Of a DNA stretch of 64,000 nucleotides, positions 7,283 through 55,068 are shown in pieces. Where the stretch lies: NCBI RefSeq assembly GCF_003018255.1, contig NZ_CP027440.1, one strand, 5' to 3'. Position 1 is the stretch's first letter; each line of letters opens with the position of its first letter. The position numbers and the translations under genes are program-made. This DNA is from Escherichia coli. Lineage in GTDB: Bacteria; Pseudomonadota; Gammaproteobacteria; Enterobacterales; Enterobacteriaceae. The notes beneath the pieces are model-generated. The model had not been told where the DNA came from, did not search any database, and saw nothing but the letters and a program-made list of their open reading frames with translations.

Positions 7283-7470
7283 ATACAACAAAGCCGGGAA
7301 TTACCCGGCTTTGTTATGGAATAAGGCGGTGCCTAACTCGACGTTTCGCCCGATGGTTGATATAGCTACGCTGATATCAGAAGTTGGACGGCAGGCACCT
7401 TGTTGTGCGTCATTCGTATTTTATGTAGCACGTCCCGAAGGGGCTGACATAAGTCGGTGAATGAGCCACT
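7283..7470 (-). ncRNA. glmY: GlmY small RNA
   Basis: Sigma54 -24/-12 promoter immediately upstream, 5' region AGUGGCUCAUUCACC, 3' terminator hairpin CAAAGCCGGG-N5-CCCGGCUUUG at 7289-7313; located between purL and glrK. Ends approximate. Confidence 0.7.
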
Positions 7471-16420: not shown

Positions 16421-16650
16421 TCCACACCAGAGCTTTGACGACACCACTCGTTTCAATGGGGGAATTCAGTGGCATGGTGTAAAGCACAGCAAAATTGCCA
16501 ATAACGAAACCGATTTTAATGTACTTATCAAAAAGCGGTCACGTTAATCTTTTTATCAATGTCGATTTCTTCGTAAAGGCTCGCGTTTTTTATGTCAGAG
16601 ATTGCAAGTTGCTTGTACAGGATAACGAAATTGATCCATAATCATTTCTG

Positions 16651-16669
16651 TTGGAATCGTGTGCTGCAC
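16651..16669 (+). repeat. 19-bp direct repeat, copy 2 (TTGGAATCGTGTGCTGCAC)
   Basis: Matches copy 1 at 18 of 19 positions; 249 bp downstream of copy 1. Confidence 0.6.
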
Positions 16670-16689
16670 AAAATTAAAGTTGTAAAGTG

Positions 16690-16722
16690 AAAACCCCCGT
16701 TCCTTACCAGTTCGGGGGTTTT
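16690..16722 (-). terminator. Rho-independent terminator downstream of acpS
   Basis: AAAACCCCCG-N13-CGGGGGTTTT hairpin flanked by A/T runs (could act bidirectionally). Confidence 0.6.
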
Positions 16723-16747
16723 ACTTTATAAAGAGAACGGTATTTTT

Positions 16748-18610: not shown

Positions 18611-20223
<1,613 letters not shown>

Positions 20224-20228
20224 TCAGC

Positions 20229-20319
20229 ACACGAAACAGACCTGATATACATGGCTCGGCTAACTGCTTCACTGCAGTTTCAGTTTACCGGTATATGGGG
20301 ACCAACGCTGTTTCGTGTG
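20229..20319 (-). promoter_or_regulatory. rnc leader stem-loop (RNase III autoregulatory site)
   Basis: Long inverted repeat CACACGAAACAG...CTGTTTCGTGTG in the rnc 5' UTR. Confidence 0.5.
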
Positions 20320-20464
20320 CCGTGGCAACCTAGAGGTGCCAACCTTAAACTTCGGGGGAATATTCTATACACAACGACGGGGGATGTCGTTAGCCACGGG
20401 AGATTTATCTCATAAATAATTCACGTTGTCGCCATAACGGCGACAACGTGAACGAAGATGGCTA

Positions 20465-21439
20465 TTAATGGATACCGCCAATGCGACTTAAGCGCACACC
20501 AGTCGGCCATTCGCCTTCTTGCTTATCGAAGCTCATCCAGATAGCCGTTGCCCGACCGACCAGATTCGCTTCAGGCACAAAGCCCCAGTAACGGCTGTCC
20601 GCGCTGTTGTCGCGGTTGTCGCCCATCATGAAGTATTGTCCCGGCGGAACAATCCAGGTTGCCAGTTGTTGCCCTGGCTGCTGGTAATACATCCCCACCT
20701 GGTCCTGCGCAATCGGCACTGTCAGAATGCGGTGCGTCACATCACCCAATGTCTCTTTACGCTCGGAAAGACGAATTCCATTTTCTTTGGTTTCGTTTTT
20801 CGGCACTTCAAAGAATCCGCTGGTCGCTTCCCCACCATTACGGCGTGAGAAGGTCTGAACGAAATCGCTCGGTTCCACGTTGGAGTAAGTGACCGGTAGC
20901 GCGTTTTCGCACGCCTGGCCGGAACTGCATCCCGGTTGAATCGTCAGCTCTTTTGAGACCGGATCATAAGTGACTTTATCGCCCGGCAAACCCACCGCGC
21001 GCTTGATGTAATCAAGCTTTGGATCTTCCGGATATTTAAAGACCACGATATCGCCGCGTTTCGGATGACCGGTTTCGATCAGCGTTTTCTGGTAGATAGG
21101 ATCTTTAATGCCATAAGCAAACTTCTCTACCAGAATAAAATCACCGATTAACAGAGTCGGCATCATCGAACCTGACGGGATCTGGAACGGTTCATAAATA
21201 AACGAACGCACAATCAATACGATAGCCAGCACCGGAAAAACAGAAGCACCGGTTTCCAGCCAGCCAGGCTTCGGCGCAACTTTCTTCAGCGTTGCTTTAT
21301 CCAGTGAGTCACCGGCAGCCGCCTGCGCCGCTGCCTGACGTTCCCGCCGTTTAGGTGCGAAAAAGAATTTATCCACGCACCATAAAATGCCCGTCACCAG
21401 TGTGGCAATCACCAGAATCAGGGCAAACATATTCGCCAT
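20465..21439 (-). CDS. lepB: Signal peptidase I
   Basis: 324-aa ORF with catalytic Ser box (IPSGSMMPTL). Confidence 0.95.
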   Translation of the reverse strand: MANMFALILVIATLVTGILWCVDKFFFAPKRRERQAAAQAAAGDSLDKATLKKVAPKPGWLETGASVFPVLAIVLIVRSFIYEPFQIPSGSMMPTLLIGDFILVEKFAYGIKDPIYQKTLIETGHPKRGDIVVFKYPEDPKLDYIKRAVGLPGDKVTYDPVSKELTIQPGCSSGQACENALPVTYSNVEPSDFVQTFSRRNGGEATSGFFEVPKNETKENGIRLSERKETLGDVTHRILTVPIAQDQVGMYYQQPGQQLATWIVPPGQYFMMGDNRDNSADSRYWGFVPEANLVGRATAIWMSFDKQEGEWPTGVRLSRIGGIH

Positions 21440-21454
21440 GCCAACTCCTAAGGG

Positions 21455-23254
<1,800 letters not shown>

Positions 23255-23451
23255 AAAGTATGATTATTGTGCCTTAATGCCCGGTTAACCAGGCTTTTAG
23301 AAGTCGCTGTTCTGAGCTTAACGTCTGTATTAATAGAAACGCCGCATTCTACACTACAACATTGAGGCGAGGAAATGTTCATACCGTATGGATTGTGGTA
23401 TCTGGAAACGTCCTCGCATTTGTTATGCAAAATGCAACAAAGCCAGTGAAA

Positions 23452-23931
23452 TCACTGGCTCGCGTCTTCCGAAGATGTTTCAAATCGCACAAGGCCAGGC
23501 GGCAAGGCCACGCTTAAGATGATCGGTTGCCATTCAGACCGGGCAGCAAACTTTCGAGAGCAGCCACGTGCAATCAGGAATCCACCAACGCCACCGAGAA
23601 TCGCACCGCATAATGCTGCAATATCTGAAGCAAAGAGTAGCTGAAATAGTGAAGCGATGAGGAATAGTCCCACCAACGGCGACATATAAACCAGTAATGC
23701 GGAGCTAAGCAGGCTGCCTTCGGCGATTCCTAATTCTACTTTTTGCCCCGGCACTAACGGCTCATCACAGGGTACGACAATGGTATGCGTGGTTTGCGGG
23801 CCAAGTTTATTCAACACGCGGCTACCGCAACCGGCACGTGAAGCGCAGCTGCTGCATGAGGCTTTAACATCACAACTAACCAGCGCCTGCCCGTTTTCCC
23901 AGGAGACGACGGTAGCCCACTCTTTGATCAT
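23452..23931 (-). CDS. rseC: SoxR-reducing system protein RseC
   Basis: 159-aa membrane protein, last gene of the rpoE operon. Confidence 0.9.
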   Translation of the reverse strand: MIKEWATVVSWENGQALVSCDVKASCSSCASRAGCGSRVLNKLGPQTTHTIVVPCDEPLVPGQKVELGIAEGSLLSSALLVYMSPLVGLFLIASLFQLLFASDIAALCGAILGGVGGFLIARGCSRKFAARSEWQPIILSVALPPGLVRFETSSEDASQ

Positions 23932-24884
23932 TGCGCTGCCCCGAACTTAATATTCTCGGCAATGCGTTTCGCCGTTTGCGGCGGCAGTTCACCGACAATG
24001 GTGATTTCGGCGTTATCACGTACGCTTGTACTGACGGTTCTGCGCCCGGTGCGCAACATCTGATCGGTGCTCGATGGCGTAGCGCGGTTAACGTTTACCG
24101 AGAAGCTGAATAATCCGTCGGAATAGAGACGTGATTCGATAGGCATGTTGTCCATCGTCGGTAGCGGACGTCGACTACTGGAAACTTCGCTAAAACCCTG
24201 TGGCAACCAGGTTGGCGTCCAGCTGAATTTAGCTTTTTCACCTACAGGAACAGAAAGCAACGGCGGCAAATTTGCCTTCGCCAGCGTCTGCATACTGCTG
24301 CTGATATCCTGATTGACATTAAAAGCAATCACGCGAAATTGTTCCAGCGTTTCACCATCGCGATCAAGGAGATCAACCCGCATCGGTAATTTCGATTCGG
24401 TGTCCATCCACACGATGTAGCTGTAGCGTGTACCATCTCGGGCAACCACACGAATGACTTCGCAAAGACGATCAGCAATACGCGTGCGCCCGACGGAGAT
24501 AAAGTCGTAGTAAGGAGAAAGGCGTTTGAAATCGGTATAGATGAGCGATGGTAGAGAATCAACAATGTAATCGCCATTAAGCGTGAACGGTTCAAGTCCC
24601 GGTTCAAAATAGCTGATTTCATTGCCGCGCTGTACCACTTCCCGGCGCGGGCCATCCATTTGCAACAATTGTGCAAGAGGACGGTTATCGAGGCGTGCAT
24701 GTCGATAACGCAGAGACTCAACACCCTGTTTATTGATGCTGATGAATGACAGCTCGTAATTCAGTGACTGACTGGCCAGGTTCATCTGCTGTAATAACGC
24801 CCCGGACGCGGGAGTGGCCGAGGCGTTAGCAGAGAATAACAGGCTACCTGTCACTAATGACATGGCAAACCAAAGTTGCTTCAT
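23928..24884 (-). CDS. rseB: Sigma-E regulatory protein RseB
   Basis: 318-aa periplasmic protein with signal peptide; overlaps rseC by 4 bp. Confidence 0.9.
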   Translation of the reverse strand: MKQLWFAMSLVTGSLLFSANASATPASGALLQQMNLASQSLNYELSFISINKQGVESLRYRHARLDNRPLAQLLQMDGPRREVVQRGNEISYFEPGLEPFTLNGDYIVDSLPSLIYTDFKRLSPYYDFISVGRTRIADRLCEVIRVVARDGTRYSYIVWMDTESKLPMRVDLLDRDGETLEQFRVIAFNVNQDISSSMQTLAKANLPPLLSVPVGEKAKFSWTPTWLPQGFSEVSSSRRPLPTMDNMPIESRLYSDGLFSFSVNVNRATPSSTDQMLRTGRRTVSTSVRDNAEITIVGELPPQTAKRIAENIKFGAAQ

Positions 24885-42021: not shown

Positions 42022-42141
42022 ATGCCTGGCAGTTCCCTACTCTCGCATGGGGAGACCCCACACTACCATCGGCGCTACGGCGTTTCACTTCTGAGTTCGG
42101 CATGGGGTCAGGTGGGACCACCGCGCTAAGGCCGCCAGGCA
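42022..42141 (-). rRNA. rrfG: 5S ribosomal RNA
   Basis: 120-nt match to E. coli 5S rRNA (one base differs from the sequence I recall). Confidence 0.9.
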
Positions 42142-42238
42142 AATTCTGTTTTATCAACACGTCTCGTTATGACATGTCGATTTAATCTGTATCAGGCTGA
42201 AAATCTTCTCTCATCCGCCAAAACATCTTCGGCGTTGT

Positions 42239-45143
<2,905 letters not shown>

Positions 45144-45336
45144 TCACAACCCGAAGATGTTTCTTTCGATTCATCATCGTGTTGCGAAAATTTGAGAGAC
45201 TCACGAACAACTTTCGTTGTTCAGTGTTTCAATTTTCAGCTTGATCCAGATTTTTAAAGAGCAAATATCTCAAACATCACCCGAAGATGAGTTTTGAGAT
45301 ATTAAGGCAGGTGACTTTCACTCACAAACCAGCAAG

Positions 45337-45412
45337 TGGCGTCCCCTAGGGGATTCGAACCCCTGTTACCGCCGTGAAAGGGCGGTGTCCTGGGCCTCTA
45401 GACGAAGGGGAC
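45337..45412 (-). tRNA. gltW: tRNA-Glu (UUC) in the 16S-23S spacer
   Basis: 76-nt exact match to GTCCCCTTCGTCTAGAGGCCCAGGACACCGCCCTTTCACGGCGGTAACAGGGGTTCGAATCCCCTAGGGGACGCCA. Confidence 0.9.
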
Positions 45413-45497
45413 GTATCAGTCTGCTTCGCAAGACGCCTTGCTTTTCACTTTCTATCAGACAATCTGTGTGAGCACTGCAAAGTACGCTTCTTTAAGG

Positions 45498-47039
<1,542 letters not shown>

Positions 47040-47482: not shown

Positions 47483-50056
47483 TTACTGGACGGCGACAAT
47501 CCGGTCTTCATTAACTTCCAGGCGAATAACTTTACCCGGAACCAATTCACCAGACAGTATTTGCTGTGCCAGCGGGTTTTCGATCTGCTGCTGGATAGCA
47601 CGTTTCAGCGGACGTGCACCATAGACCGGATCGTAACCGTTCTCGCTCAGCAGTTTCAGCGCCTCGTCAGAAATGTGGATTTCATAACCACGTTCTTCCA
47701 GACGTTTGTACAGACGTTTCAACTGAATCTGCGCAATCGACGCAATGTGCTGTTCACCCAGCGGATGGAAGACCACCACTTCATCGATACGGTTAATGAA
47801 TTCCGGACGGAAGTTATGGCTTACCACACCGAGCACCAGCTCTTTCATGTGCGCATAATCCAGTTCACCGAAGCGTTCCTGAATCAAATCGGAACCGAGG
47901 TTAGAGGTCATAATGACAACCGTATTACGGAAGTCGACCGTTCTCCCCTGCCCGTCAGTCAGACGCCCATCATCCAGTACCTGCAACAGAATGTTGAAGA
48001 CATCCGGATGCGCTTTTTCCACTTCATCCAGCAGGATGACGGAATACGGACGACGACGCACAGCTTCGGTCAGGTAGCCACCTTCTTCATAACCGACATA
48101 TCCCGGAGGCGCACCAACCAGACGAGACACCGAGTGTTTCTCCATAAACTCGGACATATCGATACGGACCATCGCCTCGTCGCTATCAAACATAAAGTTC
48201 GCTAGCGCCTTACAAAGCTCAGTTTTCCCCACACCGGTTGGGCCGAGGAACAGGAATGAACCAATCGGGCGATTTGGATCCGCCAGCCCCGCACGGCTAC
48301 GACGAATAGCGTTAGATACCGCATCAACCGCTTCGTTCTGACCAATAACGCGATGGTGCAGTTCTTGCTCCATACGCAGCAGTTTTTCGCGCTCGCTTTC
48401 CATCATGCGAGAAACCGGAATCCCCGTCCAACGCGCCAGCACTTCAGCAATTTCGGCATCGGTCACTTTATTACGCAACAGACGCATAGTTTTGCCTTCG
48501 AGCTGCGTTGCGGCTTCCAGTTGCTTTTCCAGTTCCGGGATTTTGCCGTATTGCAGTTCAGACATCCGCGCCAGGTCCCCCACACGGCGAGCCTGTTCAA
48601 TAGCGATTTTCGCCTGTTCCAGTTCCGCTTTAATGGTCTGTGTACCAGAAAGCGATGCTTTCTCTGCTTTCCACTCTTCTTCTAACTCGGAGTACTGACG
48701 TTCTTTGTCGCTCAGTTCTTCGTTGAGCATATCCAGGCGTTTTTTACTGGCTTCATCAGACTCTTTCATTAACGCCTGTTGTTCCAGTTTGAGCTGAATG
48801 ATACGGCGATCGAGTCGGTCGAGTTCTTCTGGTTTTGAGTCAATCTGCATACGAATGCTGGATGCTGCCTCATCGATCAGGTCGATGGCTTTATCTGGCA
48901 GCTGACGGTCAGCAATGTAGCGATGAGACAACGTCGCCGCTGCAACAATTGCCGGGTCAGTAATTTGCACATGGTGGTGCAGTTCGTAACGTTCTTTTAA
49001 GCCACGCAGAATAGCAATGGTGTCTTCAACAGAAGGCTCGGCAACAAACACTTTCTGGAAACGACGCTCCAGCGCAGCATCTTTTTCGATGTACTGGCGA
49101 TATTCGTCAAGCGTCGTGGCACCTACGCAGTGCAATTCACCACGCGCCAGCGCCGGTTTCAGCATGTTTCCGGCGTCCATTGCGCCATCGGCTTTACCCG
49201 CACCGACCATGGTATGTAATTCGTCGATAAACAGGATGACGTTGCCTTCCTGTTTGGCAAGATCGTTAAGCACGCCTTTTAAACGTTCTTCAAACTCACC
49301 GCGATATTTCGCCCCAGCCACCAGCGCGCCCATATCCAGCGCCAGTACGCGGCGGCCTTTCAACCCTTCCGGCACTTCGCCGTTGATAATACGCTGCGCC
49401 AGACCTTCAACGATGGCAGTTTTACCGACACCGGGTTCACCAATCAGTACCGGGTTATTTTTAGTACGACGTTGCAGCACCTGAATGGTACGGCGAATTT
49501 CTTCATCACGACCAATCACCGGATCGAGTTTGCCCTGTTCGGCTCGTTCGGTAAGGTCGATGGTATATTTTTTCAAAGCCTGACGTTGGTCTTCAGCACC
49601 TTGATCGTTCACGCTTTCACCTCCACGCATTTGTTCAATCGCTTGAGTAATGTTGGCGGTGGTCGCCCCTGCTGCTTTCAGGATGTCGGCCAGCGTGCCG
49701 CGAGACTCAAGTGCCGCCAGAACGAACAGTTCTGACGAGATAAAGTTATCACCACGTTTTTGCGCCAGCTTGTCGCAAAGATTAAGAACGCGCACCAGAT
49801 CCTGTGATGGCTGGACATCACCACCAGTACCTTCAACCTGTGGTAAACGATTTAATGCCTGATTGATATCTGTGCGCAACTGGCCAGCATTAATGCCAGC
49901 GGATGTTAATAAAGGACTAACCGAACCCCCTTCCTGATTCAGCAGGGCGCTCATTAAATGAAGTGGTTCGATGAATTGGTTGTCGTGCCCGAGTGCAAGT
50001 GATTGGGCATCGGCAAGAGCAAGCTGGAATTTATTAGTAAGACGATCCAGACGCAT
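47483..50056 (-). CDS. clpB: Disaggregase chaperone ClpB
   Basis: 857-aa product starting [18 protein letters not shown]; two AAA+ modules and coiled-coil M domain. Confidence 0.95.
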
Positions 50057-50094
50057 AACTCCTCCCATAACGGATCAAAGTTGCTACTGGAGAT

Positions 50095-50123
50095 TAAATG
50101 AGGTCATCCCTCAATTATTCAAG
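50095..50123 (-). promoter_or_regulatory. Sigma32 heat-shock promoter of clpB (CTTGAA-N14-CCTCATTTA)
   Basis: Match to the sigma32 consensus CTTGAAA/CCCCATNT with correct spacing. Confidence 0.55.
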
Positions 50124-50185
50124 GTTATTGACCAGATTAATGTGAAAAGAAAATCACGCGTACCGGATCGTCTTGATTCTTTAGG

Positions 50186-54866: not shown

Positions 54867-54922
54867 GTTGACAGCGTGAAAACAGTACGGGTACTGTACT
54901 AAAGTCACTTAAGGAAACAAAC

Positions 54923-54970
54923 ATGAAACACACACCGTTTTTCTTCGCATTCTTTTTTACCTTCCCCTGA
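54923..54970 (+). CDS. pheL: pheA leader peptide (15 aa, 7 Phe codons)
   Basis: Translates to [15 protein letters not shown]; immediately followed by the attenuator. Confidence 0.8.
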   Translation: [15 protein letters not shown]

Positions 54971-55016
54971 ATGGGAGGCGTTTCGTCGTGTGAAACAGAA
55001 TGCGAAGACGAACAAT

Positions 55017-55046
55017 AAGGCCTCCCAAATCGGGGGGCCTTTTTTA
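55017..55046 (+). terminator. pheA attenuator terminator
   Basis: AAGGCCTCCC-AAAT-CGGGGGGCCTT hairpin followed by a T-run, 20 bp upstream of the pheA ATG. Confidence 0.7.
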
Positions 55047-55068
55047 TTGATAACAAAAAGGCAACACT

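What the first reader, a model, noticed from the sequence alone, without database searches (positions are those of the whole stretch)
20229..20319. Long stem-loop in the rnc leader
The rnc 5' UTR contains a roughly 90-nt imperfect inverted repeat (CACACGAAACAGACC...GGACCAACGCTGTTTCGTGTG). This is consistent with the RNase III cleavage site through which the enzyme autoregulates its own operon. The hairpin just upstream, at 20421-20451, may be the lepB terminator.
Basis: partly seen in the sequence, partly recalled or inferred. Interest (0 to 1): 0.25.

Follow-up and report, generated by a model that had tools for sequence, protein, structure and literature searches.

The report
rncO: RNase III's self-regulating leader hairpin
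The long hairpin is real and is the well-known rncO element, the stem-loop in the leader of the E. coli RNase III gene that the enzyme cuts to limit its own production, so the finding is correct but ordinary.

Summary
The window is E. coli chromosome, with lepA-lepB-rnc-era-recO on the minus strand. The inverted repeat exists; the full stem is 20225-20322, transcribed from the minus strand (98 nt, -39.8 kcal/mol, z = -5.2). It is stem-loop II of rncO (Rfam RF00552): the full-length model matches 20353..20139(-) at 255.6 bits against a gathering score of 43. Reviews state that RNase III cleaves this hairpin in its own 5' UTR and so triggers decay. Published coordinates (5' UTR nt 1-160, cleavable fragment nt 1-129) map onto 20353 and 20225. 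rncO was found beside rnc in 36 of 36 Enterobacterales loci tested, and the lower stem and the 5' hairpin covary. Two refinements: (1) only a 13-15-bp lower stem plus a UUG/CAG mini-helix is conserved, and most of the ~90-nt length is an apical extension seen here only in Escherichia and some Citrobacter; (2) a published wild-type Term-seq 3' end maps to G20314 inside the lower stem, which fits a staggered RNase III cut at 20314|20313 and 20232|20231 (inference). The upstream hairpin (20419-20453) looks like the lepB terminator. It is conserved as a structure with 30 different stem sequences, but one Term-seq study called no 3' end there. Verdict: already known, low interest.

The parts
20139..20353 (-). 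rncO, the complete post-transcriptional operator of the rnc operon: the 160-nt 5' UTR plus the first 54 nt of rnc
   Evidence: Rfam RF00552, model positions 1-214 of 214, 255.6 bits against a gathering score of 43, E = 9e-61. The published 5' UTR length of 160 nt puts nt 1 at 20353.
20323..20341 (-). Domain I: a small 5' hairpin (UGGCACC/GG-UGCCA), transcript nt 13-31
   Evidence: Rfam structure line. The pairs covary across 94 leaders, for example col 31/59 shows UA, CG, UG, AU, GU and GC.
20225..20322 (-). Domain II: the long irregular hairpin of the finding, transcript nt 32-129, the RNase III substrate
   Evidence: Folds at -39.8 kcal/mol, z = -5.19. Rfam structure. The nt 1-129 fragment is reported to be cleaved by RNase III in vivo.
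20308..20322 (-). 5' arm of the conserved lower stem (CGGCACACGAAACAG). It contains the published Term-seq 3' end at G20314.
   Evidence: Pair counts on 94 leaders. K-12 3' end at 2,704,184(-) equals window 20314 (offset).
20225..20239 (-). 3' arm of the conserved lower stem (CUGUUUCGUGUGCUG). The predicted partner cut lies between 20232 and 20231.
   Evidence: Pair counts. The partner cut is inferred from the 2-nt 3' overhang geometry and from the G-C/C-G preference between staggered cuts.
20301..20305 (-). UUGGU, the 5' side of the conserved mini-helix above a 2x2 internal loop; it pairs with AUCAG at 20242-20246
   Evidence: Minimum-free-energy fold, RNAalifold on 8 long forms, 78-93% of cells paired over 94 leaders. 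The Rfam annotation pairs CC/GG here instead.
20242..20246 (-). AUCAG, the 3' side of the mini-helix; its C and A are invariant in all 94 leaders and its G nearly so
20247..20300 (-). Apical extension of domain II. It is lineage-specific, seen here in Escherichia and some Citrobacter, and holds three of the four differences from K-12.
   Evidence: The spacer between the 13-nt arms is 15-34 nt in 91 of 101 leaders and 63-70 nt only in Escherichia and Citrobacter.
20154..20173 (-). Domain III hairpin inside the first codons of rnc (UCGGCUUC-AACG-GAAGCUGG)
   Evidence: Rfam structure line. I did not analyse it further.
20362..20390 (-). rnc promoter: -35 ACGACA (20390-20385), 17-nt spacer, -10 TAGAAT (20367-20362)
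   Evidence: Consensus scan. The block CTAACGACA...CGTTGYGTATAGAATATYCCCCCGAAGTTT is nearly invariant in 30 Enterobacteriaceae. The TSS at 20353 lies 9 nt after the -10.
20410..20453 (-). Terminator-like hairpin (stem-loop 20453-20419) with U-rich tail UUAUUUAUGA (20419-20410), beginning 11-12 nt after the lepB stop codon (20467-20465)
   Evidence: -26.2 kcal/mol. In 30 of 30 Enterobacteriaceae leaders a 10-14-bp hairpin with a different stem sequence abuts an invariant AAUUAUUU.
19513..20193 (-). rnc coding sequence (RNase III, 226 aa), the regulated gene; its stop overlaps the era start
   Evidence: ORF list. Annotated as rnc in the matching E. coli records.

Best explanation
The hairpin is stem-loop II of rncO, the cis-acting leader through which E. 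coli RNase III controls the stability of its own rnc-era-recO mRNA. Transcription starts at G20353 from a sigma-70-type promoter located between lepB and rnc. The first 129 nt fold into a small 5' hairpin (domain I) and the long irregular hairpin (domain II). When free RNase III is plentiful it cuts domain II. That removes the protective 5' structure and leaves an unstructured 5'-monophosphate end, which RNase E attacks, so the message decays and less RNase III and Era are made. When RNase III is occupied by abundant substrates such as rRNA precursors, the leader stays intact and the message is stable. These steps are established in the literature for K-12. My own inference is that the cut lies in the conserved lower stem, at 20314|20313 on the 5' arm and 20232|20231 on the 3' arm. 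That would leave a 38-nt A/U-rich leader on the mRNA. A second inference is that the ~50-nt apical part is a dispensable, lineage-specific extension.
For: Identity: a full-length RF00552 match, 255.6 bits against a gathering score of 43. The stretch is present once per genome in 5425 of 5426 complete E. coli genomes, between lepB and rnc, and is 99% identical to K-12. Mechanism from the literature: RNase III binds and cleaves a structure in its own 5' UTR, causing rapid decay. Cleavage of an irregular hairpin creates an unstructured 5'-monophosphate end recognised by RNase E. Coordinates: the published 5' UTR of nt 1-160 and the RNase III-cleavable fragment nt 1-129 map to 20353 and 20225, which are the Rfam model start and the last base of the lower stem. 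Selection on structure: rncO sits beside rnc in 36 of 36 Enterobacterales loci. On 94 distinct leaders 88.5% of cells are paired, against 35-42% when partners are slid; 12 pairs change on both sides; the covariation score is 0.164 against a shuffled 0.080, reached by 0 of 500 shuffles. Cut site (inferred): a wild-type Term-seq 3' end lies at K-12 2,704,184, which is window G20314. It was scored as not Rho-dependent and has an intrinsic-terminator score of 1.3. With a 2-nt 3' overhang the pairs between the two cuts are C-G and G-C, which is the in vivo preference. These pairs are conserved in 89 of 94 and 94 of 94 leaders.
Against: Nothing contradicts the identification. The limits are as follows. 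No experiment was done on this strain. The Term-seq 3' end has no rnc-mutant control. It could instead come from 3' exonuclease trimming that stalls 9 nt past domain I. Two lower-stem positions are mismatched in about half of the species (48 of 94 and 42 of 94), so a perfect lower stem is not required across the order.
Confidence: 0.96

Rival explanations
1. The hairpin is mainly a 5' stabiliser that shields the rnc mRNA from 5'-end-dependent decay, and RNase III cleavage is incidental.
For: 5'-proximal stem-loops stabilise bacterial mRNAs (general knowledge). From my memory of Matsunaga 1996, which I could not check, rncO stabilises the message when RNase III is absent. Domain I and domain II sit within 31 nt of the 5' end.
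Against: This is one half of the accepted mechanism rather than an alternative to it. The literature ties regulation to cleavage. The lower stem is conserved in sequence, not only in pairing, which suggests recognition by a specific enzyme.
Confidence: 0.02
2. The hairpin is a transcription attenuator or terminator in the rnc leader that causes premature termination.
For: It is a strong hairpin in a 5' UTR. A 3' end is detected in the leader at 20314.
Against: No U-tract follows the hairpin; CUGAAUUGUUGACGC follows the 3' arm. The terminator scan found nothing there. The observed 3' end lies inside the 5' arm, before the hairpin could form. It was scored as not Rho-dependent and has an intrinsic-terminator score of only 1.3.
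Confidence: 0.01
3. The repeat is a DNA-level element, such as a protein-binding palindrome, a REP-like repeat or a mobile-element remnant, and not an RNA structure.
For: Both strands fold about equally well (-39.8 and -42.2 kcal/mol), as for any inverted repeat.
Against: It is single-copy, with a median of one place per genome and none on plasmids. It always sits 5' of rnc in the sense orientation. The covariance model scores 255.6 bits on the minus strand and 22.1 bits on the plus strand. Compensatory changes preserve RNA pairing, including G-U pairs that would be A-C on the other strand.
Confidence: 0.01

Closest known systems
rncO (Rfam RF00552), the leader of the E. coli K-12 rnc-era-recO operon (Bardwell et al. 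1989; Matsunaga, Simons and Simons 1996)
   Same: It is the same element: same genomic position, same three-domain structure, 99% identical sequence, identical lower stem and identical promoter.
   Different: There are four substitutions relative to K-12. One is in the domain I loop (20332). Three are in the apical part of domain II (20271, 20258, 20255), where they shift the predicted pairing of the tip. Stability barely changes (-39.8 against -40.9 kcal/mol).
RNase III site in the rpsO-pnp leader (control of PNPase expression)
   Same: A long irregular hairpin in a 5' leader is cut by RNase III, and the cut destabilises the downstream message.
   Different: The sequence is unrelated. In pnp the regulation is completed by PNPase acting on the cut duplex. 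In rnc the cutting enzyme is itself the regulated product.
RNase E autoregulation through the rne 5' UTR hairpin
   Same: A ribonuclease senses its own spare capacity through a structured element in its own leader.
   Different: It involves a different enzyme and a different element. It depends on binding of a stem-loop by RNase E, followed by decay that depends on the 5' sensor.
rnc autoregulation in Staphylococcus aureus, Bacillus subtilis and Streptomyces coelicolor
   Same: RNase III destabilises its own mRNA by cleavage.
   Different: The cleavage sites lie in a stem-loop inside the coding sequence (S. aureus) or elsewhere in the operon. They are not homologous to rncO, which I found only in Enterobacterales.

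Membership tests
rncO (RF00552) | Matches the curated covariance model at or above its gathering score | tested here: met
   255.6 bits against 43, E = 9e-61, model positions 1-214 of 214, minus strand.
rncO (RF00552) | Lies immediately 5' of rnc, in the sense orientation, and spans the start codon | tested here: met
   rncO is at 20353..20139(-). The rnc ATG is at 20193(-). The arrangement is the same in 36 of 36 other Enterobacterales loci.
rncO (RF00552) | Three structural domains: a 5' hairpin I, a long hairpin II, and domain III with the translation start region | tested here: met
   The full-length structural alignment has two non-canonical positions, marking one pair. Domain I and the lower stem of domain II are supported by covariation. 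I did not test domain III for covariation.
rncO (RF00552) | Begins at the rnc transcription start, giving a 5' UTR of 160 nt | tested here: inconclusive
   The published UTR length puts nt 1 at 20353, which is the Rfam model start. A conserved -35/-10 pair lies just upstream. No TSS dataset could be retrieved for direct confirmation.
rncO (RF00552) | RNase III-dependent cleavage within domain II | not testable with these tools
   Reported for K-12. A wild-type 3' end at 20314 is consistent with it but has no rnc-mutant control.
rncO (RF00552) | Cleavage lowers rnc mRNA stability and RNase III synthesis (negative autoregulation) | not testable with these tools
   Literature only.
Intrinsic (Rho-independent) terminator, for the hairpin at 20419-20453 | G+C-rich stem-loop directly followed by a U-rich tract | tested here: met
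   16 pairs counted with 8 G-C pairs, followed by the tail UAUUUAUGAG; -26.2 kcal/mol. The tract is interrupted by A residues (UUAUUUAU).
Intrinsic (Rho-independent) terminator, for the hairpin at 20419-20453 | Sits shortly after the stop codon of the upstream gene, on the same strand | tested here: met
   The lepB stop codon is at 20467-20465. The hairpin starts at 20453, which is 11-12 nt later.
Intrinsic (Rho-independent) terminator, for the hairpin at 20419-20453 | Structure conserved while the sequence changes | tested here: met
   30 of 30 Enterobacteriaceae leaders have a 10-14-bp hairpin (-16.8 to -25.1 kcal/mol, median z = -5.3). There are 30 different sequences, each ending 0-2 nt before an invariant AAUUAUUU.
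Intrinsic (Rho-independent) terminator, for the hairpin at 20419-20453 | An RNA 3' end maps to the U-tract in vivo | tested here: inconclusive
   The Adams 2021 tables hold no 3' end between K-12 2,704,200 and 2,704,399 in any condition. Only about a quarter of the 3' ends called there are gene-terminal, so absence is weak evidence. Other datasets were not available.

The most novel reading that the evidence does not exclude
The 40-nt 5' fragment released from the leader (G20353 to G20314: domain I plus 9 nt) may be more than a decay by-product. It is abundant enough to be called as a Term-seq 3' end in several growth conditions. It could act in trans, for example as a sponge, like the other 5'-UTR-derived fragments described in the same study. 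Separately, the lineage-specific apical extension of domain II could set a species-specific threshold for RNase III autoregulation.
Probability: 0.07. Interest if true: 0.35.

Novelty: already known. Interest (0 to 1): 0.08.

Why it matters
rncO is a textbook example of a ribonuclease measuring its own spare capacity through its mRNA leader. Finding it here shows that the first-stage reader can recognise a real regulatory RNA from sequence alone, but it adds nothing new about E. coli. The comparative results are small refinements. They separate a conserved core (lower stem plus UUG/CAG mini-helix), which is probably what RNase III recognises, from a fast-evolving apical extension. They also point to a specific, testable pair of cut positions. 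Both would help anyone designing minimal RNase III-responsive leaders or reporters.

Tried and rejected
1. I tried to read the primary papers (PMC1369450, PMC401487) and the Court 2013 review (PMC6311387). None is held.
2. I looked for mapped cut coordinates. Altuvia 2018 Table S2 is not held. The Gordon 2017 supplement has no rnc-leader entry. Hauk 2023 is not held. Weeks 2023 gives fragment boundaries but no cut position.
3. I looked for TSS and 3'-end datasets. Thomason 2015 is not held. No Dar and Sorek 2018 supplements are held. The Cappable-seq tables hold no entry in the region and may be incomplete as held.
4. A literature search for a lepB terminator or for read-through into rnc returned nothing relevant.
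5. My regular expression for the stem arms missed 20 of 120 leaders. Two of these have almost no upstream sequence. Rfam then found rncO in all 16 of the others that I tested, so the misses reflect the narrow pattern, not absence of the element.
6. My automatic lepB stop detection failed for the long-form leaders, including the window itself. For the window I used the ORF table instead.
7. I rejected the attenuator, DNA-palindrome and repeat-element readings (see rivals).
8. The plus-strand Rfam hit (22.1 bits) and the mir-2001 hit on the terminator hairpin (20.1 bits against a gathering score of 74) are below threshold. They reflect palindromy or chance.

Full report
**Context.** The window is E. 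coli chromosome. A 401-nt query around the finding matches 5425 of 5426 complete E. coli genomes, once per genome and never on plasmids. The best identity is 99.8%, and the matches are annotated lepB and rnc. All relevant genes are on the minus strand: lepA 23254..21455, lepB 21439..20465, rnc 20193..19513, era 19516..18611, then recO, pdxJ and acpS. Window coordinates equal K-12 (NC_000913.3) coordinates minus 2,683,870.

**Observation.**
- The inverted repeat is real. The arms lie at + strand 20228-20239 and 20308-20319, and pairing continues to give a hairpin at 20225-20322.
- As minus-strand RNA the quoted interval folds at -30.6 kcal/mol (z = -3.88; 0 of 200 shuffles fold as well). The full 98 nt fold at -39.8 kcal/mol (z = -5.19).
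- The predicted shape, from base to tip, is a perfect 15-bp lower stem, a 2x2 internal loop, a 5-bp helix UUGGU/AUCAG, and an irregular apical part.

**Identity.** A scan of 19400-21000 against all Rfam families gives one strong hit: rncO (RF00552) at 20353..20139 on the minus strand. It scores 255.6 bits against a gathering score of 43, with E = 9e-61, and covers model positions 1-214 of 214 (repeated on the whole window). The plus-strand hit of 22.1 bits is only the mirror image of the palindrome. In the model's structure line the finding corresponds to the long second stem-loop, domain II (transcript nt 32-129). It is preceded by a small hairpin, domain I (nt 13-31; 20341..20323). It is followed by a single-stranded stretch holding the ribosome-binding region and a hairpin within the first codons of rnc (20173..20154).

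Against K-12 the leader differs at four positions. One is in the loop of domain I and three are in the apical part of domain II. None is in the lower stem.

**Mechanism from the literature.** The two primary papers are not in the held library, but several accessible papers summarise them.
[quoted passage not shown] - say the same.
- Weeks and Ostermeier 2023 define the rnc 5' UTR as nt 1-160. They use nt 1-129 as a fragment that RNase III cleaves in vivo, monitored by primer extension in strains with and without active RNase III.

Mapped onto the window, nt 1 is 20353, which is exactly the Rfam model start. Nt 129 is 20225, which is exactly the last base of the lower stem.

**Comparative test.** I scanned one genome per species for the N-terminal codons of rnc with wobble positions left free, so that the leader itself did not bias retrieval. 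This gave 120 loci across Enterobacterales.
- Rfam finds rncO above its gathering score, next to rnc, in 20 of 20 representative genera (56-228 bits).
- It also finds rncO in 16 of 16 loci that my own pattern search had missed.
- On a MAFFT alignment of 94 distinct leaders, I counted domain I, the 15-bp lower stem and the UUGG/UCAG helix together. 88.5% of cells are paired, against 35-42% when the 3' partners are slid by 1-3 columns.
- Twelve pairs change on both sides. The covariation score is 0.164, against a shuffled mean of 0.080 that 0 of 500 shuffles reach.
- Clear compensatory changes in the lower stem are A-U to C-G at columns 77/172 (20 sequences), A-U to C-G at columns 73/176 (9, all Photorhabdus), and C-G to U-A at columns 71/178 (2).
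- Two positions are unpaired in about half of the species: columns 69/180 (48 of 94, mostly A opposite A) and columns 73/176 (42 of 94, A opposite C).

The perfect stem of E. coli is therefore one of two common states.

**Refinement 1: the length is not conserved.**
- The spacer between the conserved 13-nt arms is 15-34 nt in 91 of 101 leaders.
- It is 63-70 nt only in E. coli, E. albertii and some Citrobacter.
- Separate extensions occur in Raoultella and one Enterobacter (91-92 nt) and in Symbiopectobacterium (53 nt).
- All other families sampled have the short form (Erwiniaceae, Yersiniaceae, Pectobacteriaceae, Hafniaceae, Morganellaceae), so the short form is the likely ancestral state (inference by parsimony).
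- The Enterobacter cloacae hairpin is 47 nt: 15 bp, a 2x2 loop, 4 bp and a 5-nt loop, at -27.9 kcal/mol.
- The three apical differences between this window and K-12, and further differences in another E. coli, fit weak constraint on the extension.
- Directly above the lower stem, a UUG...CAG pairing is present throughout. Its C and A are invariant in all 94 leaders and its G is nearly so.
- Both the single-sequence fold and RNAalifold on eight long forms choose UUGGU/AUCAG here. The Rfam annotation pairs CC with GG instead.
- Covariation support for this small helix is thin, because its bases hardly vary.

**Refinement 2: a likely cut site.**
- The Term-seq tables of Adams et al. 2021 (wild-type K-12) list an RNA 3' end at 2,704,184(-), 121 nt upstream of the rnc ORF. 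The flanking sequence ...CACGGCACACG|AAACAGCGTT confirms the mapping.
- This is window G20314, transcript nt 40, inside the 5' arm of the lower stem. It was scored as not Rho-dependent and has an intrinsic-terminator score of 1.3. The paper does not discuss it.
- RNase III leaves 3'-OH ends with 2-nt 3' overhangs. If this end is its product, the partner cut falls between G20232 and U20231 on the 3' arm.
- The two base pairs between the staggered cuts are then C-G and G-C. In vivo those positions are paired in about 90% of targets, with a clear preference for G-C or C-G.
- These two pairs are among the best conserved in the stem, at 89 of 94 and 94 of 94.
- The 5' fragment would keep only 7 bp with the mRNA and should fall off. 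That leaves 5'-P-UGUGCUGAAUUGUUGACGCAUUUAUUUAUUGGUAUCGC-AUG, which is unstructured and A/U-rich, as the review describes.
- This chain is inference. The 3' end has no rnc-mutant control, and it could come from an exonuclease stalling 9 nt past domain I.

**The flanks.** The promoter scan finds -35 ACGACA and -10 TAGAAT at 20390..20362 with a 17-nt spacer. In 30 Enterobacteriaceae leaders the block that carries them, through to the first transcribed bases, is almost invariant.

The hairpin after lepB begins 11-12 nt past the stop codon. It folds at -26.2 kcal/mol and is followed by UUAUUUAU. In the same 30 leaders there are 30 different hairpin sequences of 10-14 bp, at -16.8 to -25.1 kcal/mol with a median z of -5.3. 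Each ends 0-2 nt before an invariant AAUUAUUU. This pattern of conserved structure with changing sequence is what a functional terminator would show.

Two things count against a strong claim. The Adams tables call no 3' end between 2,704,200 and 2,704,399 in any condition. The A/T-rich tail also lies 58-65 nt upstream of the rnc start, where it could serve the promoter instead.

In Erwiniaceae, Photorhabdus, Edwardsiella, Cedecea, Buttiauxella and others, the distance from the lepB stop to the lower stem is only 30-90 nt and no such hairpin is found. In those genera rnc must be transcribed from within lepB or together with it. I did not pursue this.

**Rivals.**
- An attenuator is excluded. 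No U-tract follows the hairpin, and the leader 3' end lies inside the 5' arm.
- A DNA-level palindrome or repeat element is excluded. The element is single-copy, has a fixed position and orientation, scores asymmetrically on the two strands, and shows RNA-type compensatory changes.
- A pure stabiliser role is part of the accepted mechanism rather than an alternative to it.

**Verdict.** The element is already known (rncO, RF00552). Interest is low. The small additions are the separation of a conserved core from a lineage-specific extension, a testable pair of cut positions, and comparative support for the lepB terminator.

Noticed in passing
window 20314 (K-12 2,704,184, minus strand): A published wild-type Term-seq 3' end lies inside the 5' arm of the rncO lower stem. 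It defines a 40-nt fragment made of domain I plus 9 nt. It is listed as an orphan 3' end and is not discussed in the source paper.
   Followed up: partly
window 19938 (K-12 2,703,808, minus strand): The same Term-seq table lists a second 3' end inside the rnc coding sequence. Its origin is unknown.
   Followed up: no
window 20373-20391 (minus strand): A perfect inverted repeat AACGAC-N7-GTCGTT overlaps the -35 hexamer and spacer of the rnc promoter. The left half is invariant in 30 Enterobacteriaceae, while the right half is broken in a few. It could be a protein-binding site, although reviews report no transcriptional control of rnc.
   Followed up: partly
window 20247-20300; loci L109 and L088 (Raoultella, Enterobacter JUb54); L087 (Symbiopectobacterium): The apical part of rncO domain II has been extended separately in several lineages. 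The spacer between the arms is 63-70 nt in Escherichia and Citrobacter, 91-92 nt in Raoultella and Enterobacter JUb54, and 53 nt in Symbiopectobacterium, against 15-34 nt elsewhere.
   Followed up: partly
loci L013, L042, L072, L076 (Rahnella and relatives), upstream of the lower stem: The loop of rncO domain I carries an insertion of about 30 nt in Rahnella and related genomes.
   Followed up: no
loci of Erwiniaceae, Photorhabdus, Edwardsiella, Cedecea and Buttiauxella (for example L051, L068, L030, L054, L116): The lepB stop codon lies only 30-90 nt from the rncO lower stem, and there is no terminator-like hairpin. The rnc promoter must lie inside lepB, or rnc is co-transcribed with lepB. 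Either way, domain I may not be 5'-terminal in those genera.
   Followed up: no
alignment A3, columns 69/180 and 73/176 (window 20317/20230 and 20313/20234): Two positions of the lower stem are C-G and A-U in E. coli. In about half of the species they are A opposite A (or A opposite G) and A opposite C. The changes at the first position often occur on both sides at once without restoring a pair.
   Followed up: partly
window 19513-19516: The rnc stop codon overlaps the era start codon (ATGA), an arrangement typical of translational coupling.
   Followed up: no
window 42024-47039, 7323-7470, 23136-23967, 54922-55047, 50037-50175, 16650-16727, 45151-45259: Other Rfam matches above gathering score in the window: an rRNA operon (5S, 23S, a tRNA, 16S), GlmY, AsrC (antisense to rseC), the Phe leader, RyfD, ohsC and StyR-44. 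All are expected for this part of the E. coli chromosome.
   Followed up: no
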